DNA of 64,000 bases from Bacteroidales bacterium (lineage in GTDB: Bacteria > Bacteroidota > Bacteroidia > Bacteroidales > B18-G4): contig JAVVEM010000005.1 of assembly GCA_032250805.1 (NCBI GenBank), positions 32,659 through 96,658 of the forward strand. Reading direction: 5' to 3'. The first letter of the stretch is position 1; each line of letters starts with the position of its first letter. The notes beneath the pieces were generated by a model. That model saw only the letters and a list, made by a program, of their open reading frames with translations. It had not been told where the DNA came from and ran no database searches. The position numbers and the translations under genes are program-made. Positions 38,333 to 50,723 of this stretch are shown one piece after another.

Positions 38333-38758
38333 TTGCCATGTTGCAGCCTTGCAGTAATTGGCATTCTGGCTGCACTATATGTTTGGTTCTTTGTCTACAA
38401 CAAGTCACACAGGGATTATGAGAAGGCCGACCCGGATCATGTTCTTGCGGCCGAAGAATTGTATGATCAATACAAGCAAAACAAATCGCTTGCCGATAGT
38501 TTGTACACCGGAATGGTGTTGCAAATCGACGGCAATCTGAGTAAAATCGAATCTGCCGATACGCTTTTGATCGTAGTATTTGCCTTTGAGCAGGGAATGT
38601 TCGGTGAAGAGGGGGTAAGATGTGTATTGCTGCAAAATCAGCATGAGAAGATATCAACATATAGCGATAATGATCCCATTACACTTAAAGGATACTGTAC
38701 CGGATATAACGATACGGATGTGATCATTGAGAAAGTATCGGTCATAACAACGAATTAA
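38333..38758 (+). CDS. membrane-anchored small protein, possibly an OB-fold (tRNA_anti-like family) protein
   Basis: N-terminal TM LAVIGILAALYVWFFVY followed by a ~110-aa soluble domain. Only a TTG (38333) or CTG start is available in frame, while ATGs at 38311/38317 are in another frame, so the start is uncertain or the 5' end is damaged. Confidence 0.4.
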   Translation: MPCCSLAVIGILAALYVWFFVYNKSHRDYEKADPDHVLAAEELYDQYKQNKSLADSLYTGMVLQIDGNLSKIESADTLLIVVFAFEQGMFGEEGVRCVLLQNQHEKISTYSDNDPITLKGYCTGYNDTDVIIEKVSVITTN

Positions 38759-39815: not shown

Positions 39816-40613
39816 CTAGGTTGAGTATGTATGTACGCTTGATGCTGCCGAAGGCAGATAGTTGATCCCAAACCAGCAGATCAGCAATATAGCAAATGCC
39901 ATTGCCACGATCCACAGGGCCGTTTTATGCGACTGTTTTTTGCGTAAACGATAATGGATATAGAGCAGGTAGGCCAGCCAGGTAAGAAATGCCCATGTTT
40001 CTTTAGGATCCCAGGTCCAGTAATGCCCCCACGCTTCTTTGGCCCACAAGGCCCCAAATAACAAACCAAAAGTTAAGAACGCAAATCCGATATAAACAAT
40101 ATTATCGGCCATGAGCATGATTTGGCTTGTATCTTTTCCTTTATAGTAAATGTAAAGGCCATAGATCCCGATCAGCGACGAAAATCCCAGGAAGGCATAC
40201 CCAATAATATATACCACCACATGTGGAATAAACCAGGGACTTTGCAGTGCCGGCATGAGTGTTTTGTCGAAGGTGTCGGGGTTTAAATAGTTAAGGAACA
40301 GGAACAATAAGGCCATCAATATGGTGTAGGCCAGCATAAGTGGAAGCTTCCAGCGGTAATAGAGCACAATGCCTATTGTGGAGATGAAAATTCCGTACCA
40401 CAGCCTTGTCTCGGCCAGAGTCCTGAATGGTGGCCGCTCAAGGCTTATCCAGAGGCCAATGGTGAAAGTGATCACCGCTGCCCATCCCAGGAACAGGAAA
40501 ACTGCTTTGAGGCCATGAAAAACCGATTTCTTCGGTGTAATGATGAATACCAGCGACAATGTCCAGAAAACAGTCGCCATCAGTAAATATGTTGGATAAT
40601 CCAGCCAGGTCAT
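39816..40613 (-). CDS. ccsA: system II cytochrome c biogenesis protein CcsA (haem-handling subunit)
   Basis: Trp-rich WWD motif WGHYWTWDPKETWAFLTWL. 8 TM segments. The start overlaps the ResB stop (ATGA, 40610-40613). Confidence 0.9.
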   Translation of the reverse strand: MTWLDYPTYLLMATVFWTLSLVFIITPKKSVFHGLKAVFLFLGWAAVITFTIGLWISLERPPFRTLAETRLWYGIFISTIGIVLYYRWKLPLMLAYTILMALLFLFLNYLNPDTFDKTLMPALQSPWFIPHVVVYIIGYAFLGFSSLIGIYGLYIYYKGKDTSQIMLMADNIVYIGFAFLTFGLLFGALWAKEAWGHYWTWDPKETWAFLTWLAYLLYIHYRLRKKQSHKTALWIVAMAFAILLICWFGINYLPSAASSVHTYST

Positions 40614-41872
40614 GATTTCTTCGTTTTAATTCGTCCTTTACCCATCCAGAGCAGGTATAAACTGCCAATGAGAATCATAAAGATCCCTGTATATACCACT
40701 GGCAGCCAGGGATCCCTTACCAGTTCAATAATACTCTTTTTTGACCATCGCCCCATTAATTCATCGTACCCGGTCTGATAAATTTTCCAGCCATCAATTT
40801 TAACTGGTTTATTTACTTCAATATAAAAATCTTCATAATCGTCCATGCTTCGGTACAGGCGGATGTCGGAGCTGTATTTCTTTGGCCTGAGTTGGGTCAT
40901 GGCAACAGAAATGTCCTTATTGATTGCCAGCTGACTTGATGGCACGGCATAGCTGCCATCAGAAACCCAGCCTTTTGCCACCGTATCGCTGTATTGGTTG
41001 GTAACGATCACATAAACAGCTCTTGCGCCTCCCTCGCGGCTGGTGGTATCATAAACATCGCCATATTTCCGGGCAAACGGGATCACCTTTTCGAAAAATA
41101 GTGTGTATTCATCCAACTGATCCTGTTCACCTTCCACCACAGTGGCAAGTTTCCCTCCTTTTTCAAGAACAAGCGTGTAATCCTTGTTGTTCATGATGCC
41201 AAGTTCAGGCGGATAGGTCTCAATCTCAAAATCAAGGAGCATCATCCCAAAGCCCATATTATAGGTGTTTCCGTTTGCATCATAGGCGTTGATTGTTGGA
41301 TGTTTTTCTTCAAGTTGCATGCTGAGCCTCCACATATCGGATGAACCCAGCGAGGCGGCAACAATGACGATCCATAACCCTATGTGATTAAGCAAAAAAG
41401 AAATATTTTTCAGACTAAAATTATTTATTCTTCGTATGATCGTAAAACCCAGTACAACAAGTAAAAGCAGGGCGCTCATCAGGTAAGGCCAGCTACTTGT
41501 TACATGCGTAAGGCCCAGACTGTCGAGCAGGGATGGATCTGCAGAATTTACCCCCTGGGGGATAAACCCCAGCAACAATACAATGAATGTAAAAGCTGTG
41601 ATCGAAGCAATGGCTGCATAGGTGCTTGAAAGCCATTTTACAATGGGATGCTTTACGAGGTAATGGATCAGTATAAAATAAATAATAAAAATGAGTATGA
41701 TCGCAATATTGGCCGGCCAGGCAGGCATCCTCACACCACCGCCAAAAAGGAGTTGTATGAGGAATCCGGATAACAATACGAAAAAGGCGATAAGAAAACT
41801 CTCGCGATATCCCCAGGGAAATTGCCAGAGCCTGGATTTTTTCTTTTTATTGGGGTTTTTTTGGCTCATCAA
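40610..41872 (-). CDS. ccsB: system II cytochrome c biogenesis protein ResB/CcsB
   Basis: N-terminal TM bundle, a large periplasmic loop, a C-terminal TM (WLPVVYTGIFMILIGSLYLLW), and translational coupling to ccsA. Confidence 0.8.
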   Translation of the reverse strand: MMSQKNPNKKKKSRLWQFPWGYRESFLIAFFVLLSGFLIQLLFGGGVRMPAWPANIAIILIFIIYFILIHYLVKHPIVKWLSSTYAAIASITAFTFIVLLLGFIPQGVNSADPSLLDSLGLTHVTSSWPYLMSALLLLVVLGFTIIRRINNFSLKNISFLLNHIGLWIVIVAASLGSSDMWRLSMQLEEKHPTINAYDANGNTYNMGFGMMLLDFEIETYPPELGIMNNKDYTLVLEKGGKLATVVEGEQDQLDEYTLFFEKVIPFARKYGDVYDTTSREGGARAVYVIVTNQYSDTVAKGWVSDGSYAVPSSQLAINKDISVAMTQLRPKKYSSDIRLYRSMDDYEDFYIEVNKPVKIDGWKIYQTGYDELMGRWSKKSIIELVRDPWLPVVYTGIFMILIGSLYLLWMGKGRIKTKKS

Positions 41873-41936
41873 TTATGCTTTTGAAGGGACAAATGTAGTG
41901 AATAAACCGATTATTTCGGTATTGCAATACTTGTTT

Positions 41937-42806
41937 TTATTGACTTTTTGATCTTTTAATTTTGATCAGCTGGATCATGGCATAGATATAATGTCCCCAA
42001 ACTCCTGTTAACATGATGATCAATGTAATGATCATCCATAGGGGAGCAATTGGTGTCCAAAGTTCACGTGCCGGGCCTTCGGCTTGTATCAGTACTTTTG
42101 GCAAAGCCCAGTTGATCGTACCACTTACTTCAACATTTCCGTAGTCGTAATGATCTTCGAGCCTTGCCATTAACAAAACATTGCCTGCCGAATCGCCAAT
42201 AATAGTAGAAGGAAAATCTATGTAACCTGTTCCGTCTTCTTCAAACCAACCATCGGCGATCTTCATATCACTGAACATTCTCGGCACATAAAAATACAGA
42301 TCGTCGTCGGCCAAAGGGATATCTTCTTCTGCACCATGTATAACGCCTTCAAAATAAACCATTTTTTCTTCTCCGTCCTCTTCAAAAGCCAGACTGATGC
42401 TAACATCCTTCACCATCAGTTCTTCTTCAGCTTCATAATAGGCCTCATTGCCAGCAAAGCGGGCTTTAAAATGAATATATCCCTCCGCATCCTTTGCAAA
42501 GGCAATCCTTCCGTCAGGGATATTAAGTTCAGCAAGTCCATCTTCATTGCTTATCACATCATCAATCAAAATCTCCTCGCCATCAGCAACATATAAAAAA
42601 CTTACCGGCAGTCCCTCTGCAGCATACTCCCCCTTATCACCGTCGGATGTAATTTTTGCGATAAGCGACCTGCTCATGTCGCTGTATTTCCAGGTACTGA
42701 ACGCAAGATATATATCAGCTGGTTGTTCCTCCTGTGCCTGGATAACTCCCGTTAAACAATAGATAAACAGAAAAAGCAGGATAACATTTTTAATCTTTGT
42801 GCTCAT
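41937..42806 (-). CDS. hypothetical acidic periplasmic protein with signal peptide and C-terminal TM anchor
   Basis: MSTKIKNVILLFLFIYCLTGVIQAQ leader, a D/E-rich body, a C-terminal TM LWMIITLIIMLTGVWGHYIYAMI and a basic tail. No Cys or haem motifs. Confidence 0.55.
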   Translation of the reverse strand: MSTKIKNVILLFLFIYCLTGVIQAQEEQPADIYLAFSTWKYSDMSRSLIAKITSDGDKGEYAAEGLPVSFLYVADGEEILIDDVISNEDGLAELNIPDGRIAFAKDAEGYIHFKARFAGNEAYYEAEEELMVKDVSISLAFEEDGEEKMVYFEGVIHGAEEDIPLADDDLYFYVPRMFSDMKIADGWFEEDGTGYIDFPSTIIGDSAGNVLLMARLEDHYDYGNVEVSGTINWALPKVLIQAEGPARELWTPIAPLWMIITLIIMLTGVWGHYIYAMIQLIKIKRSKSQ

Positions 42807-42836
42807 GATCTTTTCATTTAAAGCATTTGTTGATCG

Positions 42837-44156
42837 CTATAATATTTCTTCGCCGGCTTCGTGTTCTTTTTCCTCCGAAACGGGAATAATGGGAATAAAG
42901 CGTGCTCCGATAGTGAAGAACAGGCAAAAGGCTGCCACTCCACCAATGGTTAATGCCCATTCAACCCATGTTCCGGTGTATGATATCCAGTCGATTCGTG
43001 CATCCTGAATCGGTAAATAAGGCGATTCAAGGGTTGGTATTACGATCAGGTAGCGGTTAAACCACAGCGCTATCACCACCACAACAGCCGTTATGGTAAT
43101 CATATTGATGGTCCTGAATTTACGAATGCCCACAACGATCAGCGGCATTAACACTCCGATATAATTAGAGACAATAAACATCAGGAAATATTTATCCAAC
43201 AGCAGGCGAATAAGTTTTTCATCATCTTTTTGCGATCCATACCATTTTGTAAGGTATTCACTAAAAGTGAAATACCCGAAAAAGGCTGCCAGAATAAGCA
43301 TCAGAACCCCGATGTTAACAAAATGTTTTTTGGTGAGGTATTTTTCCAGATGGTAAATCTTTCTGAAAAGCCACATGGCGATGATCAGTACTCCCGTTCC
43401 GGAATATACTGCTGCAATGACAAAATAGGGCCCGAAAATTGTGCTGTGCCATCCGGGTTGTAAAGTAACACTGAAGATCCATGCCAGCACTGAATAAACA
43501 ATAATGGCAATGGCGATTACCATGGCAGCCATAATGTCGGTGGCATTGTTAAGTCTTTTTTGTTGTTCAGGTGTTCCCGTATAACCAAGGGCAAGGATTT
43601 TATAAAGTTTTTTCCTCCATCTGGGGATTTTGAGATCCTTAAAATCGCGCAGGGCGGCAATATCCCTTAATACAGAGAGATAAAGAAAAATAATACAGCC
43701 GAATATATCGGTTGATATTGCAATAACGTCCCAGGTGATCGGGCTCTGTATTCTGCCATATAAAACAAGGTTAGGAAGTTTATCAAGCCGGCCGATGCAG
43801 AGCAAAATATAAAGAGGTCCGATAAACAGGGCGATGATTGTAATAAATTCAGCCATGCGTATAACAGGTTTGCGCCATGAAGTCCGAAACAAATGAAGCG
43901 TACCCGAGACAAGAGCTCCGGCATAACTTACTCCCATAAAGAAAATGAAGTTTACAATATAGATGCCCCATACAACATTATCGCGCATGCCTGTAACTAT
44001 ATGACCTTGTGTGATCTGGATAATGAGTGCATATATTCCCCAGATGATCAATAATGAGAGGAAGATGATCCATACAATCGACTTTGTCTTTGGTTTTTCA
44101 ACCTGGTCGCGAAATTCCCTGAGTTTTTCAAAACTGGCTACTGAAGTACTTTCCAT
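42837..44156 (-). CDS. NrfD/PsrC family integral-membrane quinone-interacting subunit
   Basis: ~10 TM helices. Positioned 3 nt after the NrfC-like gene. Length and hydrophobic pattern are typical of the polysulfide reductase NrfD family. Confidence 0.8.
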   Translation of the reverse strand: MESTSVASFEKLREFRDQVEKPKTKSIVWIIFLSLLIIWGIYALIIQITQGHIVTGMRDNVVWGIYIVNFIFFMGVSYAGALVSGTLHLFRTSWRKPVIRMAEFITIIALFIGPLYILLCIGRLDKLPNLVLYGRIQSPITWDVIAISTDIFGCIIFLYLSVLRDIAALRDFKDLKIPRWRKKLYKILALGYTGTPEQQKRLNNATDIMAAMVIAIAIIVYSVLAWIFSVTLQPGWHSTIFGPYFVIAAVYSGTGVLIIAMWLFRKIYHLEKYLTKKHFVNIGVLMLILAAFFGYFTFSEYLTKWYGSQKDDEKLIRLLLDKYFLMFIVSNYIGVLMPLIVVGIRKFRTINMITITAVVVVIALWFNRYLIVIPTLESPYLPIQDARIDWISYTGTWVEWALTIGGVAAFCLFFTIGARFIPIIPVSEEKEHEAGEEIL

Positions 44157-44159
44157 TGT

Positions 44160-45107
44160 TTACCCCCTTTTCTTTGCATAAGGTGTATCATCATATCTTT
44201 TCTTAATTTCCTCATCAAGGCTTTCGTAACCCCTGTCGACAGGGAACTGACGGTTTACAGGAGGAAGATAATATACGCTGGGTCTTGTGCCCAGGCCTTC
44301 GAGATAACGATATCCGCTACGGTCGCGGATAAGCTCACTGAAAGCAGCTGTTTCGGCACCATTTGTTACAGCATCCTCATCAATATCACCAAAATAGATT
44401 ACGCCCATCGGACAGGCCAGGAGGCAATACGGAAGCTTGTTTTCGCGCAAACGGTCGGCACAGAACACACATTTTGATACTGTCCCTTCCTGCCCGGGAA
44501 CGCTGTTTTCCGGATTATATACAATCGTATCATCATATTCTTCATGATCCTTCCAGGAAAAATTCCTGGCTGAATACGGGCAGCCGGTCATACAAAATTT
44601 GCAGCCAATACAGCGGTCATGATCAACAAGTACGATCCCATCAGTGCGTTTGTAGGTTGCCCCCACAGGGCAGACACTCACGCACAAAGGATTATCGCAC
44701 TGAAAACAAGGCTTTGGAAACCAATAAGGTGCCGTCTTTTCAGAGTCCTGCATGAGATATACTTTCATATATTCATGGTCTTTCGGCAAATGGTGTCCTT
44801 CCTGACAGGCTTCAACGCATTTACGTGCATTGTAGCATTTGGCGAGGTCGATCACCATCACGAATTTCCTTCCGGGGATACCCTGCCGGGCTTGTAGCTT
44901 GTATTCTTCCGAAGGTGTGATATCGGAAGCATCAACTTCAACAAGTTTACCGTCGGGTGTGAGGAGTTTTACCTTTTCGCCTGAACGTGGCTCTTTGCCA
45001 CATGACGACAGGACTCCTCCGGCTGCCAGGGCACCAGCCCCGGCCAGCAATCCCCTTCGGATAAATTCCCTCCGGGGATTATTTTGTTTATCCCTTTTGT
45101 TTTCCAT
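44160..45107 (-). CDS. Tat-exported 4x[4Fe-4S] ferredoxin-type subunit (NrfC/PsrB/HybA-like)
   Basis: Twin-arginine leader PRREFIRRGLLAGAGALAAGGVLSSC. Four Cys groups (CYNARKCVEAC, CFQCDNPLCVSVCP, CIGCKFCMTGCP, CVFCADRL...CLLACP). Confidence 0.88.
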   Translation of the reverse strand: MENKRDKQNNPRREFIRRGLLAGAGALAAGGVLSSCGKEPRSGEKVKLLTPDGKLVEVDASDITPSEEYKLQARQGIPGRKFVMVIDLAKCYNARKCVEACQEGHHLPKDHEYMKVYLMQDSEKTAPYWFPKPCFQCDNPLCVSVCPVGATYKRTDGIVLVDHDRCIGCKFCMTGCPYSARNFSWKDHEEYDDTIVYNPENSVPGQEGTVSKCVFCADRLRENKLPYCLLACPMGVIYFGDIDEDAVTNGAETAAFSELIRDRSGYRYLEGLGTRPSVYYLPPVNRQFPVDRGYESLDEEIKKRYDDTPYAKKRG

Positions 45108-45131
45108 AAATATGAATAATAATTATTGAAA

Positions 45132-45749
45132 TCAGTGTTTTTCGTGGTATCCGGTAAACATGCTGGCAAAATTGTTCAATGGTTTGGCGCCAATGGTAAT
45201 GAAATAAATATGAACAAACAGAAAGATGGAAACAACAAAACCCATGATCACGTGGACCAGGTCTGCCATGTGCAGGCTGGTTCCTCCAAAAAAGTCGAGC
45301 AGCAGCGTTTCGGGATATAATAATGCAATGCCTGTAATAATGATCACCGGAATGCAGATATACATGATGACAACATAACTGAAGCGTTGCAGGGGGTTGA
45401 ACTTATTATCTTCGGTAATTTCAAAAGGTGGTTTTTTGCCCTTAAAGATCTCAAAGATGTAATATCTGGCCTGTCGTGTAATATTTTTATAATAACTTTT
45501 TAATCTGAAAAGGTATTGCCGTCCGTTAGGAGTGACAAGATTGCCTACAAGAAAGAAAATATAACTGATTGTGAGCAATATACCCGAATAGTCATGAATG
45601 GCCACTGCCCAGTCGAAGCGTATGAATGGATATGCAGGATCAGAGTATTGCATGCTGATACCTGTAATGATCAGTAAGAGGCACAGAATAGCATTGAGCC
45701 AGTGCCAGAGGCGAACCCAAACAGGATATAAATATAGTTTATCAGCCAT
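45132..45749 (-). CDS. membrane b-type cytochrome (PhsC / HydC / Ni-Fe hydrogenase cytochrome b family-like)
   Basis: WVRLWHWLNAILCLLLIITG, with conserved His in TM helices (HW, IHD, LVHVIMG, HIYF). 8-nt overlap with the upstream heptahaem gene. Confidence 0.78.
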   Translation of the reverse strand: MADKLYLYPVWVRLWHWLNAILCLLLIITGISMQYSDPAYPFIRFDWAVAIHDYSGILLTISYIFFLVGNLVTPNGRQYLFRLKSYYKNITRQARYYIFEIFKGKKPPFEITEDNKFNPLQRFSYVVIMYICIPVIIITGIALLYPETLLLDFFGGTSLHMADLVHVIMGFVVSIFLFVHIYFITIGAKPLNNFASMFTGYHEKH

Positions 45750-46731
45750 TTTGTTTTTGTTTAATCGTTAAGCGTAAGATCGCATGAAGAGCAATGAATA
45801 GCAAAACAGCACCTGCAATAATGAGGCTTAGTTTATTGAGATATACATTTCTGTTTGCACCAATAACATAGCCTTCTTCAAGCAAAGCAGAATTTGTAAA
45901 ACCGGCTTTGGAGCGCTGATCAGTAAACTGCAGGCGGTATAATGATGCAAGTAACCTGGATTCTTTCGAGTGACAGTCGACGCAACGCTTGACAGCATTT
46001 TCCTTGGGCTGGACATTATGTCCGACAAGCATTTCATCATTGATCTCAACATGGCACTCAATGCACCTTACTTTCCTGAAATGCAGGCTTTGGTTCGGCA
46101 ACCACTCATGCGTTTTAATGATGTTTGGTTTTTCCTGTGTGGTGAGGAGCTCGTATTTATCAATATCAGCATGGCAATTCAGGCAGATTGCATTATCATA
46201 TTGAATAAATTCCTGCATATTTTCATTTGTGCGGGCATTGATTTTGTAGGTATGCGGATCATGGCACATCCAGCATGTAAATTCGTCTGAATGCAGGGAT
46301 GAATGCACGCTCTTGCGGAATTCCTCTTCAATACCTTCGAAATTATATTGTGCATAATTGTCGTCGCCACCGTGGCAGTCGATACATTCGTATATGGGTT
46401 CCATCCTGAGCTCACCGGAGTGTGGAAATTCGGCATAATCGGCTGAGTGGCAGTCTACACAACGAAAATTCCAATGATTCGATACGTAAAACTGGGCTGA
46501 ATCGATAATATAATACGGATTCATCCTTTCTTTTACATCCCTCTCAACCCAGTCATTATAATAGGAGTAATATTTTTGACCGTGACATTTAAGACAATCC
46601 TGGTTTTCTTCGAGGTATTCATAAACACGTTCCGTTTTTTCAACGGGGGTTTGTGAAGAAAGGGGTTGAATAATGGTAACAATCAGTAAAACAAGTACTG
46701 CCGGGGCGATAAACAGCAACAACCTTCGCAT
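45742..46731 (-). CDS. membrane-anchored heptahaem c-type cytochrome
   Basis: Seven CxxCH motifs (CLKCH, CVDCH, CIDCH, CWMCH, CLNCH, CIECH, CVDCH). N-terminal anchor MRRLLLFIAPAVLVLLIV and C-terminal TM LSLIIAGAVLLFIALHAIL. Start set at 46731 because the ORF-track extension runs through the terminator hairpin. Confidence 0.85.
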   Translation of the reverse strand: MRRLLLFIAPAVLVLLIVTIIQPLSSQTPVEKTERVYEYLEENQDCLKCHGQKYYSYYNDWVERDVKERMNPYYIIDSAQFYVSNHWNFRCVDCHSADYAEFPHSGELRMEPIYECIDCHGGDDNYAQYNFEGIEEEFRKSVHSSLHSDEFTCWMCHDPHTYKINARTNENMQEFIQYDNAICLNCHADIDKYELLTTQEKPNIIKTHEWLPNQSLHFRKVRCIECHVEINDEMLVGHNVQPKENAVKRCVDCHSKESRLLASLYRLQFTDQRSKAGFTNSALLEEGYVIGANRNVYLNKLSLIIAGAVLLFIALHAILRLTIKQKQNG

Positions 46732-46745
46732 AGCTTTTTGATTTG

Positions 46746-46779
46746 AAAAAAAAGGTGCCATTTTTATTAAATGGCACCT
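46746..46779 (-). terminator. intrinsic terminator between the monohaem cytochrome c gene and the heptahaem gene
   Basis: 11-bp perfect stem aggtgccattt (46753-46763) / aaatggcacct (46769-46779), loop ttatt. On the minus-strand transcript it is followed by a 7-U run (complement of A 46746-46752). Confidence 0.7.
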
Positions 46780-46796
46780 CAAACCTATTAACAATT

Positions 46797-47219
46797 CTAC
46801 TTCAGGGTTCTTAAGTAATTAATGATTGCCCATCGGTCTTCTTCTTCGGTGATCTTTTTTTCATAATTTGGCATTTCATTCCTTCCAATGATCGACTTAT
46901 AATAAAGTTCACCATCAGTGCCTGACTGAAATTCTTCTGAACTAAAATCTCCGGGAAAGGTTTCCAGTTGTTTGGCTTTGGGCCCGTCACCCAAGCCATC
47001 ATTGCCATGGCATGATTTACAATGCTTGCTATAAAGCATTTTTCCAACCTTGACCAGATCGGCGTCATCGGCATATGGATTTTCCATCTTCACATATTTT
47101 GAAGGGATATCCCAGGGCTCACCTTTTTTCTGGTCCTGTGGAAATGCAAATGCCATAAATATAAATGCAAACAGAATCGCAGATGCTATTCCAAGTACGT
47201 TAATTGTTTTTGTTTTCAT
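46797..47219 (-). CDS. monohaem class I c-type cytochrome, exported or anchored
   Basis: N-terminal hydrophobic segment; a single CKSCHGNDGLGDG motif; a distal Met candidate in GRNEMPNYE. Confidence 0.85.
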   Translation of the reverse strand: MKTKTINVLGIASAILFAFIFMAFAFPQDQKKGEPWDIPSKYVKMENPYADDADLVKVGKMLYSKHCKSCHGNDGLGDGPKAKQLETFPGDFSSEEFQSGTDGELYYKSIIGRNEMPNYEKKITEEEDRWAIINYLRTLK

Positions 47220-47282
47220 AATTTATGTTTTTAAATGATTATACAATAAAGGTAAAGGTACGAATTTTTTAGCGTTTCTCAA

Positions 47283-48155
47283 CTAAAAACTCCATAATCG
47301 TGTAATGGTAAAGCCAAAAAACAGATCGCCGTTCAGCCGCCAGTCGTTCTGATTTTCCATCATGGTATACTGCGGCGACAGGTCGGTGGCCGAGCTTACA
47401 AATATCTGAAAACAGTGTGTGCTGGTAGCGATCTCCCAGCCAATACCGAAGTTATCGTGTGGAGGGTTCGTGAGCGTTGTATGCTCCTGTATGCCTTTAA
47501 TGTCCAAGGGGATACCATAATTGAACACGATCGACGATTGTGCGGATAGGCGTGCACGCCCTGAAAAGGAAATACCAATTTTATCATGCTCCATTAATGA
47601 ATCCACCCTGTTTATATGACTGAAATTACCTGCTACCTGAACAGAAAGCCAATCGGTAAATTTCCTGGCTACGATCAGTTCTCCATAGTACGACAACCTG
47701 TTTGTAAACGTGTAGTCCTGGCCAAAATAGCTTTTATTCCTGCCATCAACACCCATATTGCCATATGCTGTAACGGCTACCGGTATTTTGTCGTCGCGTG
47801 TTTGTTCCAGAATGTTATACTTGACACGGAAGTCCTGGAGCTTACGCATTTTGGTGGTTCCGAAGCCAACAGATAATTTGTCGGTGATGCTGTAATTAAC
47901 TCCCAGCCTAACGTTGGTAGAGCCATAGATGCCAAAAAGGTTTGAAATATCCTCTATCCTGTCGAAACGGTGTTCGATCACAAATTCGAGGGTTTTGGCT
48001 GTAGGGATGTAACCTGTCTGGTGGTCGATCACTGTGGGGCAGGCAAAGGCCGGCCTTACAGGTTTGCTTTTAACTTTTGTTTTTTCATTTTCCTGGGCAC
48101 TGAGCATTAATGGCAGCACAAACAGGATGATAAGTATTATATTTAGTTTTTTCAT
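47283..48155 (-). CDS. DUF5777-like outer-membrane beta-barrel protein
   Basis: Start at MKKLNIILIILFVLPLMLSAQ (signal peptide). Amphipathic beta-strand pattern. C-terminal FGFTITRLWSF (terminal aromatic). Paralog of 38906-39802. Confidence 0.68.
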   Translation of the reverse strand: MKKLNIILIILFVLPLMLSAQENEKTKVKSKPVRPAFACPTVIDHQTGYIPTAKTLEFVIEHRFDRIEDISNLFGIYGSTNVRLGVNYSITDKLSVGFGTTKMRKLQDFRVKYNILEQTRDDKIPVAVTAYGNMGVDGRNKSYFGQDYTFTNRLSYYGELIVARKFTDWLSVQVAGNFSHINRVDSLMEHDKIGISFSGRARLSAQSSIVFNYGIPLDIKGIQEHTTLTNPPHDNFGIGWEIATSTHCFQIFVSSATDLSPQYTMMENQNDWRLNGDLFFGFTITRLWSF

Positions 48156-48178
48156 GCTCTGTAGTTTTTTGGTTACCA

Positions 48179-48550
48179 TTAATTGTTTTCTGCACCTTGC
48201 TTGATCCATGCCAGGATAATCTCTGCATCGGCCGGATTCTGAACGTAGGGTTTCATAGATCCTGTTGTCATGCTCGTGTAAATAATGCTTGACTCAGGAA
48301 TGTCGGTGTCTACATAATTTCCATTGATCAGGGCATTATAGGCATTCCCTTCAGACAGGTCAGGGGGGTTGGCTCCGGGGCCATGACAGATAGCTGTGTT
48401 GCATCCATTGTTGAAAACGGGCATCACATCAACCGAGAAGCTCACATTATCGGGGATCGTAACCTTTTCGGGCGTGATCCATTCATATTCGCATGAACTA
48501 AGCATGAAGGCTGCCATGACGAGAAGCATTAGAGCGCTGCGTATTTTCAT
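48179..48550 (-). CDS. small lipoprotein with a single Cx4CH cytochrome-c-like motif
   Basis: Lipobox AFMLSSCEYEW. VMPVFNNGCNTAICHGPGANPPDL. C-terminal ILAWIKQGAENN resembles the domain ends in the 37580-38291 pseudogene. Confidence 0.6.
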   Translation of the reverse strand: MKIRSALMLLVMAAFMLSSCEYEWITPEKVTIPDNVSFSVDVMPVFNNGCNTAICHGPGANPPDLSEGNAYNALINGNYVDTDIPESSIIYTSMTTGSMKPYVQNPADAEIILAWIKQGAENN

Positions 48551-48629
48551 ATCCTTTATCTTTTATGCGTTGAAATGAAAAAAGGCCTCAATCATTAACT
48601 GAAGCCCTTTTTCGCAACAATTATTATTA

Positions 48630-49682
48630 CTACTGGATGGCTTCTATTGAGTTTACAAGAAGCGCTCGTGCATATTTAGGATTGTGGACAGCCTTGCTTC
48701 TGTCTTCTTCAATAAACTTATAATTGTAGAAAGCTCCGGTCTGGGCATTTGTATATGTTCCGGGAACGGTCAGATAACCATCTTCCCGCATAACACCCTG
48801 GTCTTTTAACAAGGTTTCCAGTTGCAACAGATAGTCTTCAATTTCCAGGGCCAGGTCTTCAGTAGCAGCAATGAGGTTGGTTTCGTTTGAATGGCATCCC
48901 GACGCCAGGCATCCTGCCAGGTTCAGTTCGGTATGGCCGTGATACTCATATCCCATCTTAAAGGTATGGCCTCCGGCCTGTGCGCCATATGCATCCGCCA
49001 TATGGCACGATACACAACCATCTTCTATGCCTGAGTGGGCTGTGTTTTCGTAGCCCATGCTGCCTGCAATTTCATAGGCACCACCACCGATACCGTACAG
49101 GAGGTTGCCCTGTGGGCCGTGGTGTGGTCCCCAGCGATAACTGCTTCCAACGGGGAATTCTACAGTTCCGGGTCCCATGGCCGGGTATGGTTGCACAGGC
49201 CTTGATTGGTGGCATTTTGTACATAGGTTGCCATTGGCTCTGTCGGCTGTTGCACCACCTTCCATGAAAGTTACAGGATCAGTATACCTGAGCATCCAGT
49301 CGTCAGCCGTATAGGTTTCATGAACCTTGTGGCAGGTGTAACAGTTAATGGGTGTTGGATTAGCAATAGTGGTTGCCGTTGTATCAGCACCGGTTTCAAT
49401 AACCTCCCTGAATCCCATGCTGGTATGACAGGGTGCGCAGGAATTGCCATTTCTTTCAAAATTTCCGCCATTTGCGTGTGTTGATGCTTCCCATTGTACT
49501 ACCTTGGCCAGAAAGTCTTCTCCTGAGTTGTGGCATTGACCACATGTAGCCGTGCCATCAGTGCCGTCAATTCCATCTTCGCCTGCAGGTCCTGCAGGTC
49601 CTTCTTTTGTGCAGCTTGTTGCTACGATCATTGCCAGTGCCAAACCGGGAACGATGAGTAAAATTGTAATTAGCTTTTTCAT
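48630..49682 (-). CDS. multihaem c-type cytochrome lipoprotein (5 CxxCH + 1 Cx4CH) with a collagen-like GXY linker
   Basis: Lipobox IVATSCTKE. (GXY)6 = GPAGPAGEDGIDGTDGTA. CGQCH, CAPCH, CYTCH, CTKCH, CVSCH and CLASGCH. Confidence 0.85.
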   Translation of the reverse strand: MKKLITILLIVPGLALAMIVATSCTKEGPAGPAGEDGIDGTDGTATCGQCHNSGEDFLAKVVQWEASTHANGGNFERNGNSCAPCHTSMGFREVIETGADTTATTIANPTPINCYTCHKVHETYTADDWMLRYTDPVTFMEGGATADRANGNLCTKCHQSRPVQPYPAMGPGTVEFPVGSSYRWGPHHGPQGNLLYGIGGGAYEIAGSMGYENTAHSGIEDGCVSCHMADAYGAQAGGHTFKMGYEYHGHTELNLAGCLASGCHSNETNLIAATEDLALEIEDYLLQLETLLKDQGVMREDGYLTVPGTYTNAQTGAFYNYKFIEEDRSKAVHNPKYARALLVNSIEAIQ

Positions 49683-50027
49683 ATTTGTTGTTTTTGGTTT
49701 CTGAGCACAATTTTACCTCTAGTAATCGAAATATGAAAAATAATGTATATGATGTGCATGCCCAATTGGTTTAATTAAATAAGAAAAAATAAACATAAAT
49801 ATCAATAAAAAGATGATAAAAAACAATAAAAGTATTATAAAACACAGAAAAAGAGGAATGTAATAAATGCTTTAATATCAAAAAATGATCACAAAATCTT
49901 ATTTAGACCAGATATAAATACGATTTTTGCATGAATTTACCGCGCCCGGCAGATCTGCTATTTAAGCTGATATGGCCAAATTGACCGTTTCGTTATTCAA
50001 ATGAAGCAATCTAAAAAATGTTACACA

Positions 50028-50723
50028 TTAACCCGTCTCACCAATTCGCAATAATTCTTTTTTATCAAGGACTTCAACAAGGTTGCTTTCAACCTTGATC
50101 AATTTTTGATCCTTGAATACTTTCAGCACCCGGATAACATTTTCTTTCGACATGGCAGTGAGATCTGCAAGATCCTGCCGGCTTATGGTAAGAATAAAAG
50201 GATTCCGGCCGTAAATTTCATCCATTAAAAAAATTATGGCATCAGCAATGCGGCCATGCATTTGCTTTTGGGTGAGATTAATGAATTTTTGAAAATTGTT
50301 TATGCTCAGTATATTGCTGCTTTTAAGCAGGTCGCAGGCAAAACTGTGATTTTTCCCAAGCATTTCTTCAATTATTTTTGTATCAACCAGGCATGCCCTT
50401 GTATCTTCAACAGCAGCGACAGAAAAGTGATGGCGATAATCGACGAACATACCAGGATTGCCTATCATCTGCACAGGCTTGGCAAAGGAAAGGATCAGGT
50501 TTCGCTTGTTCAGACCTTCGATATAAATCTTGGCAAGTCCATCTGTAATGCAAGCCAAATGGGTAAGCGGGGATCCCTGCTTAAAAATGATCTCTCCTTT
50601 GTTAAAGGTAAGTTCATAGCGGCTTTCGTTTACCTGTTCAAGCTCCTTTTCTTTAAGCAAGGCAAAAATATTATTCCTCTTGTTACAGGATTTACAGTTA
50701 GTAAGCTTATTTGATATGCTCAT
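50028..50723 (-). CDS. Crp/Fnr family transcriptional regulator
   Basis: cNMP-binding-like beta-roll (FNKGEIIFKQGSPLTHLACITDGLAKIY) and a C-terminal HTH (ISRQDLADLTAMSKENVIRVLKVF). N-terminal CKSC pair. Confidence 0.85.
   Translation of the reverse strand: MSISNKLTNCKSCNKRNNIFALLKEKELEQVNESRYELTFNKGEIIFKQGSPLTHLACITDGLAKIYIEGLNKRNLILSFAKPVQMIGNPGMFVDYRHHFSVAAVEDTRACLVDTKIIEEMLGKNHSFACDLLKSSNILSINNFQKFINLTQKQMHGRIADAIIFLMDEIYGRNPFILTISRQDLADLTAMSKENVIRVLKVFKDQKLIKVESNLVEVLDKKELLRIGETG

What the first reader, a model, noticed from the sequence alone, without database searches (positions are those of the whole stretch)
39816..50723. Cytochrome / beta-barrel / quinol-dehydrogenase / haem-lyase supercluster beside a Crp/Fnr regulator: candidate uncharacterised trans-envelope electron-transfer system
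Eleven minus-strand genes are separated by small gaps or overlaps:
- lipoprotein cytochrome with 5 CxxCH + 1 Cx4CH (48630-49682)
- small Cx4CH lipoprotein (48179-48550)
- ~290-aa beta-barrel (47283-48155)
- monohaem cytochrome c (46797-47219)
- membrane-anchored heptahaem cytochrome (45742-46731)
- PhsC/HydC-like cytochrome b (45132-45749)
- Tat-exported 4-cluster FeS subunit (44160-45107)
- NrfD-like subunit (42837-44156)
- unknown anchored periplasmic protein (41937-42806)
- ResB and CcsA (39816-41872)

No molybdopterin or other recognisable catalytic subunit accompanies the NrfCD-like pair, so the cytochromes themselves must be the electron output.

The arrangement is an inner-membrane quinol oxidase, then periplasmic cytochromes, then an outer-membrane barrel with lipoprotein multihaem cytochromes. 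This mirrors porin-cytochrome conduits (MtrCAB, Geobacter Pcc/Cbc). However, the parts do not look like those families, and the host is Bacteroidota.

A Crp/Fnr regulator and a 345-bp very AT-rich spacer (49683-50027) sit directly upstream. This suggests redox or O2-responsive control.

Alternative reading: a new Nrf-like periplasmic reductase for a soluble substrate.
Basis: partly seen in the sequence, partly recalled or inferred. Interest (0 to 1): 0.88.

Follow-up and report, generated by a model that had tools for sequence, protein, structure and literature searches.

The report
Bacteroidales cytochrome chain to outer membrane
A widely conserved operon of uncultured Bacteroidales, placed next to an Fnr-type regulator gene, encodes haem proteins running from the inner-membrane quinol pool to two lipoprotein cytochromes and a small 12-stranded outer-membrane barrel; it most likely lets these fermenters pass electrons to outside or non-enzymatic acceptors, and its outer-membrane step has no characterised precedent.

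Summary
The eleven minus-strand genes, the Crp/Fnr gene and the 345-bp AT-rich spacer are all present as described.

The set is a conserved core plus lineage-specific additions. In 22 full-context metagenome loci:
- small monohaem lipoprotein + DUF5777 barrel: 22/22 (directly adjacent in 68/69 loci with enough flank)
- hexahaem lipoprotein: 20/22
- heptahaem + cytochrome b: 20/22
- ImcH-like cytochrome: 12/22
- FeS–NrfD–289-aa trio: 0/22
- ResB: 1/22; CcsA: 4/22

At least one inner-membrane quinol module was present in all 22.

The heptahaem/cytochrome b pair has the architecture of Geobacter CbcBA. The hexahaem protein belongs to the NrfA/OcwA fold. It appears to lack the NrfA catalytic haem and has exactly six invariant extra histidines for six haems, so it looks like a wire, not an enzyme.

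The barrel has 12 strands (FapF/COG4313-like). That is too narrow to sheathe a multihaem cytochrome, so this is not an MtrB-type conduit.

An FNR box (TTGAY-N4-RTCAA) lies upstream in 25/55 related loci. It is degenerate in this window.

Best reading (~0.5): an anoxia-induced, quinol-fed electron-output chain with a new kind of outer-membrane module.

The parts
50028..50723 (-). Crp/Fnr-family regulator. It is co-directional here and divergent in many relatives. Four Cys (C10, C13, C58, C101) are conserved among the cluster-linked orthologues.
   Evidence: Pfam cNMP_binding 5.6e-13 and HTH_Crp_2 1e-11. Weak FnrL/Fnr NCBIfam hits below cut-off. Adjacent to the cluster in 18/22 full-context loci. 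Cys conservation.
49683..50027 (-). 345-bp AT-rich (27% GC) regulatory spacer. It holds a degenerate FNR-type box (49792-49805, TTGATATTTATGTT on the minus strand). It also holds a conserved TAAAATTG motif (within 49705-49717), resembling the Bacteroidetes -7 promoter element known from the literature, about 30 bp before the ATG.
   Evidence: GC. Box coordinates. No site within 1 mismatch in this spacer. In related loci the box is perfect in 25/55 and within 1 mismatch in 39/55, against 0.005 and 0.083 expected per 360 bp. Motif comparison.
48630..49682 (-). Hexahaem lipoprotein cytochrome of the NrfA/OcwA fold. Lipobox Cys24 is followed by T-K-E-G-P and a collagen-like Gly-X-Y tether. It has five CxxCH plus one Cx4CH, and six further invariant His.
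   Evidence: Motifs. 851 homologues, all unnamed. AF2 pLDDT 88. Foldseek best match OcwA 6i5b, E 5e-5, TM 0.50, then NrfA and octahaem nitrite reductases. Profile against PDB: OcwA 5.5e-12. Invariant H69, H121, H187, H216, H239, H333 in 137 sequences.
48179..48550 (-). Small (123 aa) monohaem lipoprotein, PSCyt1-like. The mature N-terminus C-E-Y-E is nearly invariant. The haem motif is Cx4CH here and CxxCH in about half of the relatives. No conserved sixth haem ligand.
   Evidence: Direct reading. NCBIfam LIC11213_lipo 7.5e-7, below cut-off. Homologous to a PSCyt1-positive paralogue. Conservation. Directly upstream of DUF5777 in 68/69 loci.
47283..48155 (-). DUF5777 outer-membrane barrel with 12 predicted strands, a conserved 35-aa N-terminal extension and a C-terminal Phe.
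   Evidence: Pfam PF19089 4.7e-72. AF2 pLDDT 89.8 with 12 strands. Foldseek matches FapF, COG4313, OmpG, Tsx, NanC and KdgM. Invariant residues and strand parity.
46797..47219 (-). Periplasmic class-I monohaem cytochrome c with a cleavable signal peptide. CKSCH plus a conserved Met-Pro.
   Evidence: Pfam Cytochrom_C 9e-12. Alignment. Present in 16/22 full-context loci.
45742..46731 (-). Heptahaem cytochrome c with a C-terminal transmembrane helix carrying an invariant His. This is the CbcA-type architecture.
   Evidence: Seven CxxCH. Invariant TM His and seven candidate distal His. 354 representative relatives, including fusions to cytochrome b. Closest solved relative is PDB 28pb, 3.6e-19. 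Architecture of CbcA.
45132..45749 (-). Four-helix dihaem cytochrome b of the HydC/PhsC/FdnI family (CbcB-type) with four invariant His. It overlaps the heptahaem gene by 8 bp.
   Evidence: Pfam Ni_hydr_CYTB 8.2e-28. NCBIfam PhsC 5.3e-51, 173.6 bits against a cut-off of 204. His conservation. Fused to the heptahaem domain in about 20 representatives.
44160..45107 (-). Tat-exported four-cluster FeS protein (NrfC/DsrO/PsrB-like). Accessory module, rare outside this lineage.
   Evidence: Pfam Fer4_11 7e-19. NCBIfam DsrO 1.1e-49, 169 bits against a cut-off of 200. 0/22 full-context loci; seen in L001-L003, L010, L012 and L077.
42837..44156 (-). NrfD-family integral membrane quinol-interacting subunit. 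Accessory module.
   Evidence: Pfam NrfD 3.8e-30. Weak DsrP and QrcD hits below cut-off. Always paired with the FeS gene.
41937..42806 (-). 289-aa protein of unknown family. It has a signal peptide, a periplasmic domain and a C-terminal TM helix with a conserved GVWGHY motif. It always follows FeS-NrfD, so it is probably a third subunit of that module.
   Evidence: No Pfam, NCBIfam or PDB match. Co-occurs with FeS-NrfD in the window, L001-L003, L010 and L077.
40610..41872 (-). ResB/CcsB-like System II cytochrome c biogenesis protein. Only occasionally linked to the cluster.
   Evidence: Pfam ResB 8.2e-13. Adjacent in the window, L001, L002, L008, L028 and L068, but in only 1/22 full-context loci.
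39816..40613 (-). CcsA haem lyase/haem channel subunit with the WGHYWTWDPKETW tryptophan-rich motif. Only occasionally linked to the cluster.
   Evidence: Pfam Cytochrom_C_asm 2.2e-35. TIGR03144 ccsB 1.2e-43, below cut-off. Motif read. Present in 4/22 full-context loci.

Best explanation
This is an operon for a respiratory electron-output chain that has no terminal enzyme.

Shown:
- A Crp/Fnr-family regulator gene sits beside the operon.
- In relatives an FNR-type box lies about 100-170 bp upstream of the first gene.

Inferred:
- Expression is switched on under low oxygen or reducing conditions.
- Menaquinol is oxidised at the inner membrane by a CbcBA-type complex. This is a four-helix dihaem cytochrome b plus a heptahaem cytochrome c held by a C-terminal helix that carries a His.
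- In this lineage a second, NrfCD/DsrOP-like module adds to this. It consists of a Tat-exported 4x[4Fe-4S] protein, an NrfD subunit and a 289-aa single-pass subunit.
- Electrons pass through all-bis-His haem wires and a soluble class-I monohaem cytochrome c to a hexahaem lipoprotein on a flexible collagen-like tether.
- The hexahaem protein is an NrfA/OcwA-fold protein that appears to have lost the catalytic haem.
- From there electrons reach an outer-membrane pair that is almost never separated: a monohaem PSCyt1-like lipoprotein and a 12-stranded DUF5777 barrel.
- The acceptor is something reducible by outer-sphere electron transfer: Fe(III)/Mn(IV) minerals or chelates, humic quinones, shuttles or a partner cell.
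- The acceptor is met either at the cell surface or at the mouth or lumen of the barrel, in the way Fe2+ is thought to enter Cyc2.

Shown by comparison across loci:
- The outer part (hexahaem, small cytochrome, barrel) is the constant part.
- The inner-membrane quinol oxidase is interchangeable. It has CbcBA-like, ImcH-like, CbcL-like or NrfCD-like architecture.

The step across the outer membrane is not explained by any known mechanism.
For: 1. Components and operon structure are confirmed.

2. Synteny:
- Small lipoprotein directly upstream of the barrel in 68/69 loci.
- In 22 full-context loci: hexahaem 20, heptahaem + cytochrome b 20, ImcH-like 12, any quinol module 22.
- No other conserved gene family, so no hidden catalytic subunit.

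3. Interchangeable quinol modules:
- L052 and L090 have only the ImcH-like gene.
- L077 has FeS-NrfD-289aa plus ImcH-like, without heptahaem or cytochrome b.
- L041 adds a 19-haem cytochrome fused to a cytochrome b domain.
- The ImcH-like protein has 3 TM helices, 7 CxxCH and about 500 aa, matching the published ImcH architecture.

4. The heptahaem + cytochrome b pair matches each published CbcBA feature. The CbcBA paper itself reports homologous clusters in Bacteroidetes and proposes them as EET markers. Natural fusions of the two proteins exist.

5. The hexahaem protein's closest relative by sequence profile (5.5e-12) and by fold (E 5e-5, TM 0.50) is OcwA. OcwA is the cell-surface terminal reductase of Thermincola.

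6. Six invariant non-motif His for six haems in 137 sequences. No room for, and no alignment to, NrfA haem 1. Seven candidate distal His for the seven haems of the heptahaem protein.

7. FNR box: 25/55 perfect and 39/55 within 1 mismatch, against 0.005 and 0.083 expected per 360 bp.

8. The small lipoprotein's C-E-Y-(E/D) N-terminus is net negative, as surface-export signals of Bacteroidetes are.
Against: - No experiment and no cultured carrier was found. Every named homologue is from a MAG.
- The barrel has 12 strands. It cannot hold a multihaem cytochrome, and no cofactor that could bridge 3-4 nm of membrane is evident.
- The hexahaem N-terminus (C-T-K-E-G, in some relatives C-T-K-V-G) does not meet the K-(D/E)2 surface-export signal. 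It may face the periplasm.
- A class-I His/Met monohaem cytochrome c is usually of high potential. That fits soluble high-potential acceptors or electron uptake as well as it fits EET.
- The heptahaem + cytochrome b family also occurs in Magnetococcales, Magnetospira and a sulfur-oxidising symbiont, so it is not specific to metal reducers.
- Direct sequence homology to Geobacter CbcA/CbcB could not be checked.
- Bis-His ligation is inferred from conservation counts, not from coordinates. The OcwA paper warns that enough His does not guarantee bis-His ligation.
- This window's own FNR box is degenerate.
Confidence: 0.5

Rival explanations
1. It is a periplasmic reductase system for a soluble acceptor. 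The DUF5777 barrel would be a substrate-specific uptake channel. One of the lipoprotein cytochromes, facing the periplasm, would be the reductase. The likeliest candidate is the small monohaem protein, which lacks a conserved sixth ligand.
For: - The barrel resembles small solute or peptide channels: FapF, COG4313, Tsx, NanC, KdgM.
- Its lumen-facing parity carries conserved charged residues: R83, D108, K112, R200, E241.
- The small cytochrome has no conserved His or Met that could serve as distal ligand.
- The hexahaem N-terminus lacks a canonical surface-export signal.
- The NrfA-family fold is typical of N/S-oxyanion reductases, and OcwA itself turns over nitrite and hydroxylamine slowly.
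- A high-potential-type monohaem cytochrome c is present.
Against: - The hexahaem protein appears to lack the NrfA catalytic haem and has six invariant distal His.
- There is no CxxCK motif, no Cu/Mo/FeS catalytic partner and no further conserved gene in 22 loci.
- The quinol oxidases that swap in and out of the cluster (architectures of CbcBA, ImcH and CbcL) are characterised only in Geobacter extracellular respiration.
- Small oxyanions do not normally need a dedicated barrel.
Confidence: 0.22
2. It is an inward or bidirectional electron path. A two-gene analogue of Cyc2 (monohaem cytochrome plus small barrel) would oxidise Fe(II) or another outside donor. It would pass electrons through the class-I cytochrome c to the membrane complexes, which would then work as quinone reductases or feed an oxidase.
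For: - A monohaem cytochrome plus barrel, followed by a periplasmic class-I cytochrome c, mirrors the Cyc2-Cyc1 logic.
- CbcL/MtoC-type bc proteins occur in both metal reducers and metal oxidisers.
- The heptahaem + cytochrome b family occurs in Magnetococcales and a sulfur-oxidising symbiont.
Against: - The hosts look like saccharolytic Bacteroidales from anoxic sludge, digesters and sediments.
- An FNR-type box points to anaerobic induction.
- No oxidase or carbon-fixation genes are linked.
- The barrel has 12 strands, not 16, and is not fused to the cytochrome.
Confidence: 0.1
3. It has a protective or assimilatory role. The periplasmic and outer-membrane cytochromes would scavenge O2/H2O2, or reduce Fe(III) for iron uptake through the barrel, rather than support respiration.
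For: - Multihaem cytochromes can reduce O2 and peroxide non-specifically.
- An HmuY gene lies near one related locus.
- A Crp/Fnr regulator could respond to oxidative shifts.
Against: - Fifteen c-type haems plus two quinol oxidases is a costly apparatus for a housekeeping task.
- The quinol modules present are respiratory types.
- No TonB-dependent receptor, peroxidase or iron-transport gene is conserved in the cluster.
Confidence: 0.06

Closest known systems
Geobacter sulfurreducens CbcBA (GSU0593-0594), the inner-membrane bc-type menaquinol oxidase needed for extracellular respiration near -0.2 V
   Same: - A seven-haem c subunit facing the periplasm, anchored by one C-terminal TM helix that carries a His.
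- An adjacent four-helix dihaem cytochrome b usually annotated as 'thiosulfate reductase-like'.
- Gene fusions of the two are known in other phyla.
- The literature reports homologous clusters in Bacteroidetes.
   Different: - The regulator is Crp/Fnr, not the sigma54-dependent BccR.
- The cytochrome b here has four invariant His, against three reported for CbcB.
- It is embedded in an operon with outer-membrane components.
- Direct sequence comparison with GSU0593/0594 could not be made.
Thermincola potens OcwA (PDB 6i5b), the nonahaem cell-surface terminal reductase; and NrfA pentahaem nitrite reductase
   Same: - Best sequence-profile and fold match of the hexahaem lipoprotein.
- Shared last two haems.
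- Shared C-terminal helical bundle with the S-x-G-V-H-N motif.
   Different: - Six haems, against nine in OcwA and five in NrfA.
- 350 aa, against about 480-520 aa.
- A lipoprotein with a collagen-like tether.
- No apparent counterpart of NrfA haem 1 / OcwA haem 5.
- Six invariant distal His suggest no open site.
- TM-score is only 0.50.
Porin-cytochrome outer-membrane conduits (MtrCAB, OmbB-OmaB-OmcB, ExtABCD)
   Same: - An operon combining an outer-membrane barrel with lipoprotein c-type cytochromes and periplasmic cytochromes.
- Two small lipoprotein cytochromes, as in ExtCD.
   Different: - The barrel has 12 strands, against 18-26.
- No soluble periplasmic multihaem cytochrome that could insert into it.
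- No sequence relationship to these families beyond generic multihaem-domain matches (heptahaem PF22113, 34.9 bits against a cut-off of 30).
Cyc2, the fused monohaem cytochrome-porin of iron oxidisers
   Same: One c-type haem is associated with a small outer-membrane barrel. The substrate is proposed to enter the pore. Here a monohaem lipoprotein gene lies directly before the barrel gene in 68/69 loci.
   Different: - Two separate genes.
- The cytochrome is lipidated.
- 12 strands, against 16.
- PSCyt1-like rather than Cyc2-type cytochrome.
- Homology was not tested.
- The context suggests reduction, not oxidation.
NrfCD / DsrOP / Geobacter Cbc4 (CbcSTU) type FeS + NrfD quinol modules
   Same: A Tat-exported four-cluster ferredoxin-like subunit plus an NrfD-family membrane subunit, with no molybdopterin partner.
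   Different: - Scores fall below every equivalog cut-off (DsrO 169 against 200; DsrP 73 against 350).
- It is accompanied by a novel 289-aa single-pass subunit.
- It is an accessory in this system (0/22 full-context loci).
FapF and COG4313 12-stranded outer-membrane channels
   Same: Best fold matches of the DUF5777 barrel (E about 2e-6, TM about 0.5). Both have 12 strands, and a conserved N-terminal extension precedes the first strand here.
   Different: - About 12% identity.
- TM about 0.5 is generic for barrels.
- DUF5777 has its own invariant His/Arg/Asp/Lys set.
- No amyloid or hydrocarbon genes nearby.

Membership tests
Porin-cytochrome outer-membrane electron conduit (criteria of PMC6148476) | Integral outer-membrane beta-barrel wide enough to hold a cytochrome (18-26 strands) | tested here: not met
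   A barrel is present, but AF2 (pLDDT 89.8) gives 12 strands. Foldseek neighbours are 12-14-strand channels. Ext barrels have 18-21 strands and MtrB has 26.
Porin-cytochrome outer-membrane electron conduit (criteria of PMC6148476) | Soluble periplasmic multihaem cytochrome partner | tested here: not met
   The only soluble cytochrome is monohaem. The heptahaem protein has a C-terminal TM anchor and the hexahaem protein is a lipoprotein.
Porin-cytochrome outer-membrane electron conduit (criteria of PMC6148476) | [quoted passage not shown] | tested here: met
   Two proteins have a signal peptide plus an invariant lipobox Cys, with 6 and 1 haem motifs. Which membrane face they occupy is not testable here.
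CbcBA-type quinol:cytochrome c oxidoreductase | Seven-haem c subunit with a single C-terminal TM helix that supplies a His | tested here: met
   Seven CxxCH. H316 in the C-terminal helix is invariant in 51 diverse sequences. Definition.
CbcBA-type quinol:cytochrome c oxidoreductase | Adjacent four-TM dihaem cytochrome b of the HydC/PhsC type | tested here: met
   PF01292 8.2e-28. PhsC model 5.3e-51, below its cut-off. 8-bp gene overlap. Four invariant His.
CbcBA-type quinol:cytochrome c oxidoreductase | Sequence homology to GSU0593/GSU0594 | not tested
   No Geobacter sequence could be reached. Representative, cluster and profile searches returned no Geobacter names. The claim of Bacteroidetes homologues rests on the paper.
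CbcBA-type quinol:cytochrome c oxidoreductase | Divergent sigma54-dependent regulator (BccR) | tested here: not met
   The adjacent regulator is Crp/Fnr-type in 18/22 loci.
NrfA / octahaem reductase family (catalytic members) | Catalytic haem (CxxCK, or a His-only five-coordinate haem) with active-site residues | tested here: not met
   - No CxxCK motif.
- Alignment maps haems 1, 2, 5 and 6 to NrfA haems 2-5, though the NrfA domain alignments are weak (i-E 2.3 and 0.0096).
- Nothing precedes haem 1.
- Six invariant extra His for six haems.
- Ligand geometry could not be inspected because no model coordinates were available.
NrfA / OcwA multihaem superfamily (fold level) | C-terminal helical bundle, conserved G-V-H-N motif and the last two haem sites | tested here: met
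   Profile hit to OcwA 5.5e-12 over residues 209-341 and to NrfA 5.6e-5. Foldseek OcwA E 5e-5, TM 0.50.
NrfCD / DsrOP-type module | Tat leader, four FeS-cluster motifs and an NrfD-family partner | tested here: met
   RREFIRRG leader and four Cys clusters. Fer4_11 7e-19 and NrfD 3.8e-30.
NrfCD / DsrOP-type module | Equivalog-level identity to a named system (DsrO/P, NrfC/D, QrcC/D, TtrB) | tested here: not met
   All scores fall below the curated cut-offs: DsrO 169/200, QrcC 118/400, NrfC 105/378, DsrP 73/350.
Cyc2 fused cytochrome-porin | Single-haem cytochrome domain fused to a 16-strand porin | tested here: not met
   Separate genes, a lipidated cytochrome and 12 strands. Only the logic is similar.
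DUF5777 (PF19089) | Full-length match above the gathering score | tested here: met
   242.6 bits against a cut-off of 23.1, covering positions 4-247 of 247. The second copy at 38906-39802 scores 322.8 bits.
FNR-type regulation | TTGAT-N4-ATCAA box upstream of the regulated operon | tested here: inconclusive
   Strongly enriched in relatives: 25/55 perfect against about 0.3 expected. In this window only a degenerate site is present at 49792-49805.
FNR-type regulation | Cys set able to bind an O2-labile [4Fe-4S] cluster | tested here: inconclusive
   Four Cys (C10, C13, C58, C101) are conserved among the cluster-linked orthologues. Their spacing differs from the E. coli FNR Cys positions as known from the literature.
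Bacteroidetes surface lipoprotein (LES, PMC5080379) | Polar or positive residue followed by at least two acidic residues at +2 to +6 after the lipidated Cys | tested here: inconclusive
   - Hexahaem: C-T-K-E-G-P has one acidic residue, and some relatives have C-T-K-V-G. Not met.
- Small cytochrome: C-E-Y-(E/D) has two acidic residues and a net negative charge, but is not the canonical pattern.
System II cytochrome c biogenesis as a dedicated lyase for this operon | Consistent linkage of ResB/CcsA with the cluster or with the Cx4CH motifs | tested here: not met
   ResB in 1/22 and CcsA in 4/22 full-context loci. Loci with adjacent ResB/CcsA (L008, L068) have plain CxxCH motifs.

The most novel reading that the evidence does not exclude
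The monohaem lipoprotein and the 12-stranded DUF5777 barrel would form a new, minimal kind of outer-membrane electron gate, a two-gene analogue of Cyc2. It would be served by a tethered OcwA-like hexahaem lipoprotein. This would give widespread uncultured 'fermentative' Bacteroidales of sediments, sludge and digesters a genuine extracellular respiration. Its inner-membrane quinol oxidase would be swapped between four types, perhaps according to acceptor potential (a guess, not tested).
Probability: 0.3. Interest if true: 0.88.

Novelty: new variant of a known kind. Interest (0 to 1): 0.7.

Why it matters
Bacteroidales are among the most abundant heterotrophs in anoxic sediments, digesters and sludge, and they are usually modelled as pure fermenters.

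A conserved operon that couples their quinol pool to outer-membrane cytochromes would mean that many of them can respire on minerals, humics, shuttles or partner cells. The operon was seen in at least 80 metagenome loci, and more than 500 barrel-encoding stretches were detected. Such respiration would change carbon, iron and manganese budgets and the reading of 'electroactive' communities.

Mechanistically, the only accepted way to move electrons across an outer membrane without a diffusing carrier is a wide barrel sheathing a multihaem cytochrome. A system that does it with a 12-stranded barrel and a one-haem lipoprotein would be a second solution.

The natural swapping of inner-membrane modules against a fixed outer module also offers a comparative handle on why Geobacter keeps several quinol oxidases.

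If instead the system proves to be a periplasmic reductase, it would still define functions for DUF5777, for a PSCyt1-like lipoprotein family and for a new NrfA-fold hexahaem family.

Tried and rejected
1. I looked for a direct link to Geobacter CbcA. A full-library representative search, two cluster-name look-ups and a profile search built only from distant members gave no Geobacter or cultured-isolate names. Named hits were Magnetococcales, Magnetospira, an Escarpia endosymbiont and Bacteroidales MAGs. Homology to GSU0593/0594 therefore stays unverified.

2. A literature search for DUF5777 found nothing. Searches for a described Bacteroidota porin-cytochrome cluster found nothing matching.

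3. Single-sequence searches against PDB found nothing useful for the hexahaem protein, cytochrome b or the 289-aa protein. Only profile searches worked.

4. Hypothesis that ResB/CcsA is a dedicated lyase for the Cx4CH motifs: rejected. Linkage is rare and does not track the motif.

5. It is absent from 22/22 full-context loci.

6. Hypothesis of a hidden catalytic subunit nearby: rejected by all-against-all clustering of neighbourhood ORFs.

7. MtrB-like sheath: rejected on strand count.

8. No tRNA or Rfam family lies in the window, so no RNA element is involved and no rRNA-based taxonomy is possible.

9. Haem-ligand geometry and a possible barrel plug could not be examined.

Full report
**1. 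The observation**

The ORF scan shows eleven minus-strand ORFs from 39816 to 49682, and a further minus-strand ORF at 50028-50723. Intergenic distances run from -8 to +79 bp, which fits one transcription unit.

- 350-aa protein: CGQCH, CAPCH, CYTCH, CTKCH, CVSCH and CLASGCH.
- 123-aa protein: CNTAICH.
- 140-aa protein: one CxxCH.
- 329-aa protein: seven CxxCH.

Pfam confirms the following:

| Gene product | Pfam match | E-value |
|---|---|---|
| Barrel | DUF5777 | 4.7e-72 |
| Monohaem cytochrome | Cytochrom_C | 9e-12 |
| Cytochrome b | Ni_hydr_CYTB | 8.2e-28 |
| FeS protein | Fer4_11 | 7e-19 |
| NrfD subunit | NrfD | 3.8e-30 |
| ResB | ResB | 8e-13 |
| CcsA | Cytochrom_C_asm | 2e-35 |
| Regulator | cNMP_binding + HTH_Crp_2 | 5.6e-13 / 1e-11 |

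The 123-aa and 289-aa proteins match nothing. The spacer 49683-50027 is 345 bp at 27% GC, against 44% for the window.

The host is a Bacteroidota genome. The nearest relatives are Bacteroidales MAGs. The window also carries a SusC/SusD beta-glucan locus and a T9SS-tailed protein.

**2. Which genes belong together**

Five genome loci, four further contigs and 80 metagenome loci found through the barrel were compared by tblastn.

- The small lipoprotein gene lies directly upstream of the barrel gene in 68 of 69 loci with enough flank.
- In the 22 loci with full context:

| Gene | Loci (of 22) |
|---|---|
| Small lipoprotein | 22 |
| Hexahaem lipoprotein | 20 |
| Heptahaem + cytochrome b | 20 |
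| Crp/Fnr regulator | 18 |
| Monohaem cytochrome c | 16 |
| ImcH-like cytochrome | 12 |
| FeS / NrfD / 289-aa | 0 |
| ResB | 1 |
| CcsA | 4 |

- In some loci the hexahaem gene has moved to behind cytochrome b.
- All 22 loci have at least one inner-membrane quinol module, but the type varies. Ten have only heptahaem + cytochrome b, ten have that plus the ImcH-like gene, and two (L052, L090) have only the ImcH-like gene.
- L077, which is not in the 22-locus set, has monohaem c, FeS, NrfD, the 289-aa gene and the ImcH-like gene, without heptahaem or cytochrome b.
- L003 and L004 are close relatives that differ by presence or absence of the FeS-NrfD-289aa trio.
- Clustering all neighbourhood ORFs found no further conserved family. 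A few loci carry a 932-aa, 19-haem cytochrome fused to a cytochrome b domain, together with a tetrahaem c554-like protein.

So the constant part is the outer part: hexahaem lipoprotein, small lipoprotein, barrel, and usually the monohaem cytochrome c. The inner-membrane quinol oxidase is interchangeable. The FeS-NrfD-289aa trio and ResB/CcsA of this window are lineage-specific additions.

**3. The inner-membrane parts**

The heptahaem protein has seven invariant CxxCH motifs, seven candidate distal His, and an invariant His in its C-terminal transmembrane helix. The cytochrome b has four invariant His in helices 1, 2 and 4, and its gene overlaps the heptahaem gene by 8 bp.

Among 150 representatives of the heptahaem family, about twenty are fused at their C-terminus to the cytochrome b. 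That is strong evidence the two act as one complex.

These are the features published for Geobacter CbcBA:
- A seven-haem CbcA with a C-terminal helix that seems to supply a His.
- A four-helix dihaem CbcB annotated as 'thiosulfate reductase-like'.
- Fusions of the two in Chloroflexi.

That paper also notes homologous clusters in Bacteroidetes (Prolixibacter, Marinilabiliales, Labilibaculum) and proposes them as markers of extracellular electron transfer.

I could not obtain a Geobacter sequence to test homology directly. The family also occurs in Magnetococcales, Magnetospira and a sulfur-oxidising symbiont, so it is a general bc-type module.

The roughly 500-aa protein of related loci has three N-terminal TM helices, a NapC/NrfH-like start and seven CxxCH. 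This is the ImcH architecture.

The FeS and NrfD proteins score best against DsrO and DsrP, but below every curated cut-off. The 289-aa protein always travels with them.

**4. The hexahaem lipoprotein**

It has 851 detectable homologues, almost all called hypothetical. AlphaFold2 on a 92-sequence alignment gives pLDDT 88.

Closest relatives:
- The best fold match is OcwA of Thermincola potens (E 5e-5, TM 0.50), followed by NrfA and octahaem nitrite reductases.
- A sequence profile hits OcwA at 5.5e-12 over the last two haems and the C-terminal helices with the G-V-H-N motif, and NrfA at 5.6e-5.
[quoted passage not shown] It has an NrfA-like core, two open haems and weak nitrite and hydroxylamine turnover.

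How the haems map:
- The alignments place haems 1, 2, 5 and 6 on NrfA haems 2, 3, 4 and 5.
- Haems 3 and 4 are an insertion.
- The mature protein starts too close to haem 1 to hold a counterpart of the catalytic NrfA haem 1. The NrfA domain alignments are weak (i-E 2.3 and 0.0096), so this mapping is suggestive.

In 137 sequences, down to 29% identity, exactly six non-motif His are invariant: H69, H121, H187, H216, H239 and H333. The simplest reading is six bis-His haems, which makes the protein a wire rather than an enzyme. This is an inference from conservation, and the OcwA paper shows that such counts can mislead.

The N-terminus after the lipidated Cys is C-(T/V)-K-E-G-P, followed by Gly-X-Y repeats of variable length. 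It does not meet the K-(D/E)2 surface-export signal of Bacteroidetes, so its membrane face is open.

**5. The outer-membrane pair**

AlphaFold2 gives a 12-stranded barrel for DUF5777 (pLDDT 89.8), with a conserved 35-residue N-terminal extension. Fold neighbours are 12-14-strand channels: FapF, COG4313, OmpG, Tsx, NanC and KdgM. TM-scores near 0.5 are generic for barrels.

- Barrels of known conduits have 18-26 strands. This barrel cannot enclose a multihaem cytochrome.
- Strand periodicity places the conserved R83, D108, K112, N133, R200 and E241 on the lumen side.
- It places the invariant H62, H180 and H247 on the lipid-facing parity at strand ends. Their role is unknown.

The small lipoprotein is a monohaem, PSCyt1-like protein:
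- Its disrupted paralogue upstream of the second DUF5777 gene matches Pfam PSCyt1 once repaired.
- The paralogue aligns with it at 3e-10.
- Its haem motif is Cx4CH in this clade and CxxCH in about half of the relatives.
- No His or Met is conserved that could be the sixth ligand.
- The mature N-terminus C-E-Y-(E/D) is nearly invariant. It is net negative, as surface-export signals are, but it is not canonical.

The tight pairing of a one-haem cytochrome with a small barrel recalls Cyc2. In Cyc2 a monohaem domain is fused to a 16-strand porin and Fe2+ is thought to enter the pore. The resemblance is one of logic only.

**6. Regulation**

A TTGAY-N4-RTCAA palindrome, the classical FNR box, lies about 100-170 bp upstream of the first cluster gene.
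- It is perfect in 25 of 55 loci and within one mismatch in 39 of 55.
- Background rates in the same loci are 0.005 and 0.083 per 360 bp.

The linked regulators share four Cys: C10, C13, C58 and C101. In this window the homologous site is degenerate (TTGATATTTATGTT at 49792-49805), and no site within one mismatch exists in the spacer.

A TAAAATTG / TAATATTG motif close to the start codon is conserved across loci. It resembles the Bacteroidetes -7 promoter element known from the literature. Redox or O2 control is therefore well supported for the family and weaker for this particular copy.

**7. Interpretation**

The evidence fits an anoxia-induced, quinol-fed chain made entirely of electron-transfer haems, with no catalytic subunit. 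It ends at lipoprotein cytochromes and a small barrel.
- The interchangeable quinol oxidases have the architectures of CbcBA, ImcH and CbcL, which are characterised only in Geobacter extracellular respiration.
- The hexahaem protein's closest relative is a surface terminal reductase.

I therefore favour electron output to acceptors that need no active site, met at the surface or at the barrel. Confidence is about 0.5.

Rivals:
- A periplasmic reductase with the barrel as uptake channel, about 0.22. The small cytochrome's missing sixth ligand is its best argument.
- An inward, Cyc2-like path, about 0.1.
- A protective or assimilatory role, about 0.06.

How electrons would cross the outer membrane is unexplained, and that is the real novelty.

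**8. Comparison and verdict**

- The inner-membrane modules are known kinds.
- The hexahaem protein is a new family within the NrfA/OcwA fold.
- The barrel plus monohaem lipoprotein pair has no characterised counterpart.
- The system fails two of the three defining criteria of porin-cytochrome conduits. It may work like one but is not a member.

No paper describing this cluster was found. Only the passing remark on cbcBA homologues in Bacteroidetes touches it.

I rate it a new variant of a known kind, with interest 0.7.

Noticed in passing
window 37580-38290 (+), with 38333-38758 and 38906-39802: A second 'small haem lipoprotein + DUF5777' pair lies convergent with CcsA. The lipoprotein gene encodes two PSCyt1-like domains, one with Cx4CH and one with CxxCH. 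It is disrupted by a frameshift near 37890 and by in-frame TAA (37999) and TAG (38193) codons. The DUF5777 copy (298 aa, 1.6e-96) is intact, and a tRNA_anti-like OB-fold gene sits between them.
   Followed up: partly
L041 13154-15952 and 16049-16540: Some related loci add a 932-aa protein with 19 CxxCH motifs fused to a Ni_hydr_CYTB membrane domain (CbcL-like architecture). They also add a 163-aa tetrahaem c554-like cytochrome. This occurs in 4-6 of the 22 full-context loci.
   Followed up: partly
L009 14821-16326; L006 15114-16613: A roughly 500-aa membrane cytochrome with three TM helices and seven CxxCH (ImcH-like) is preceded by a 51-69-aa ORF. It is present in 12/22 related loci but absent from the window.
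   Followed up: partly
L011 8001-10748 (Magnetospira sp. QH-2): The same heptahaem + cytochrome b pair is followed by an EB_dh (haem-b, ethylbenzene-dehydrogenase gamma-like) domain protein. The family is also common in Magnetococcales MAGs and in an Escarpia tubeworm endosymbiont.
   Followed up: no
window 45742-46731 (protein level): PDB entry 28pb (278 aa, labelled only 'Cytochrome c') is the closest solved relative of the heptahaem family (3.6e-19). It shares the W-L-P-x-x-x-x-H motif. Its identity could not be established with the tools.
   Followed up: no
window 48630-49682, residues 24-45: A collagen-like Gly-X-Y tether (GPAGPAGEDGIDGTDGT) lies between the lipid anchor and the first haem. 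Its length varies among relatives, and one homologue is annotated 'collagen-like protein'. It could act as a leash spanning the periplasm or as a stalk.
   Followed up: partly
window 5130-29268: A beta-glucan-type polysaccharide utilisation locus. It includes SusC (17957-21046), SusD (16382-17956), GH16, GH3, a GH94-like protein, an MFS sugar transporter, PKD/T9SS-tailed proteins and a Y_Y_Y hybrid regulator.
   Followed up: no
window 38-1594 (+): A haem peroxidase (Pfam peroxidase, 3e-46), probably KatG-like, lies at the window edge. It hints at oxygen exposure in this organism's niche.
   Followed up: no
L003 versus L004 (after the cytochrome b gene): Two closely related MAG loci with identical flanks differ only in whether the FeS-NrfD-unknown trio is present. 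This natural indel shows the trio moves as a cassette.
   Followed up: yes
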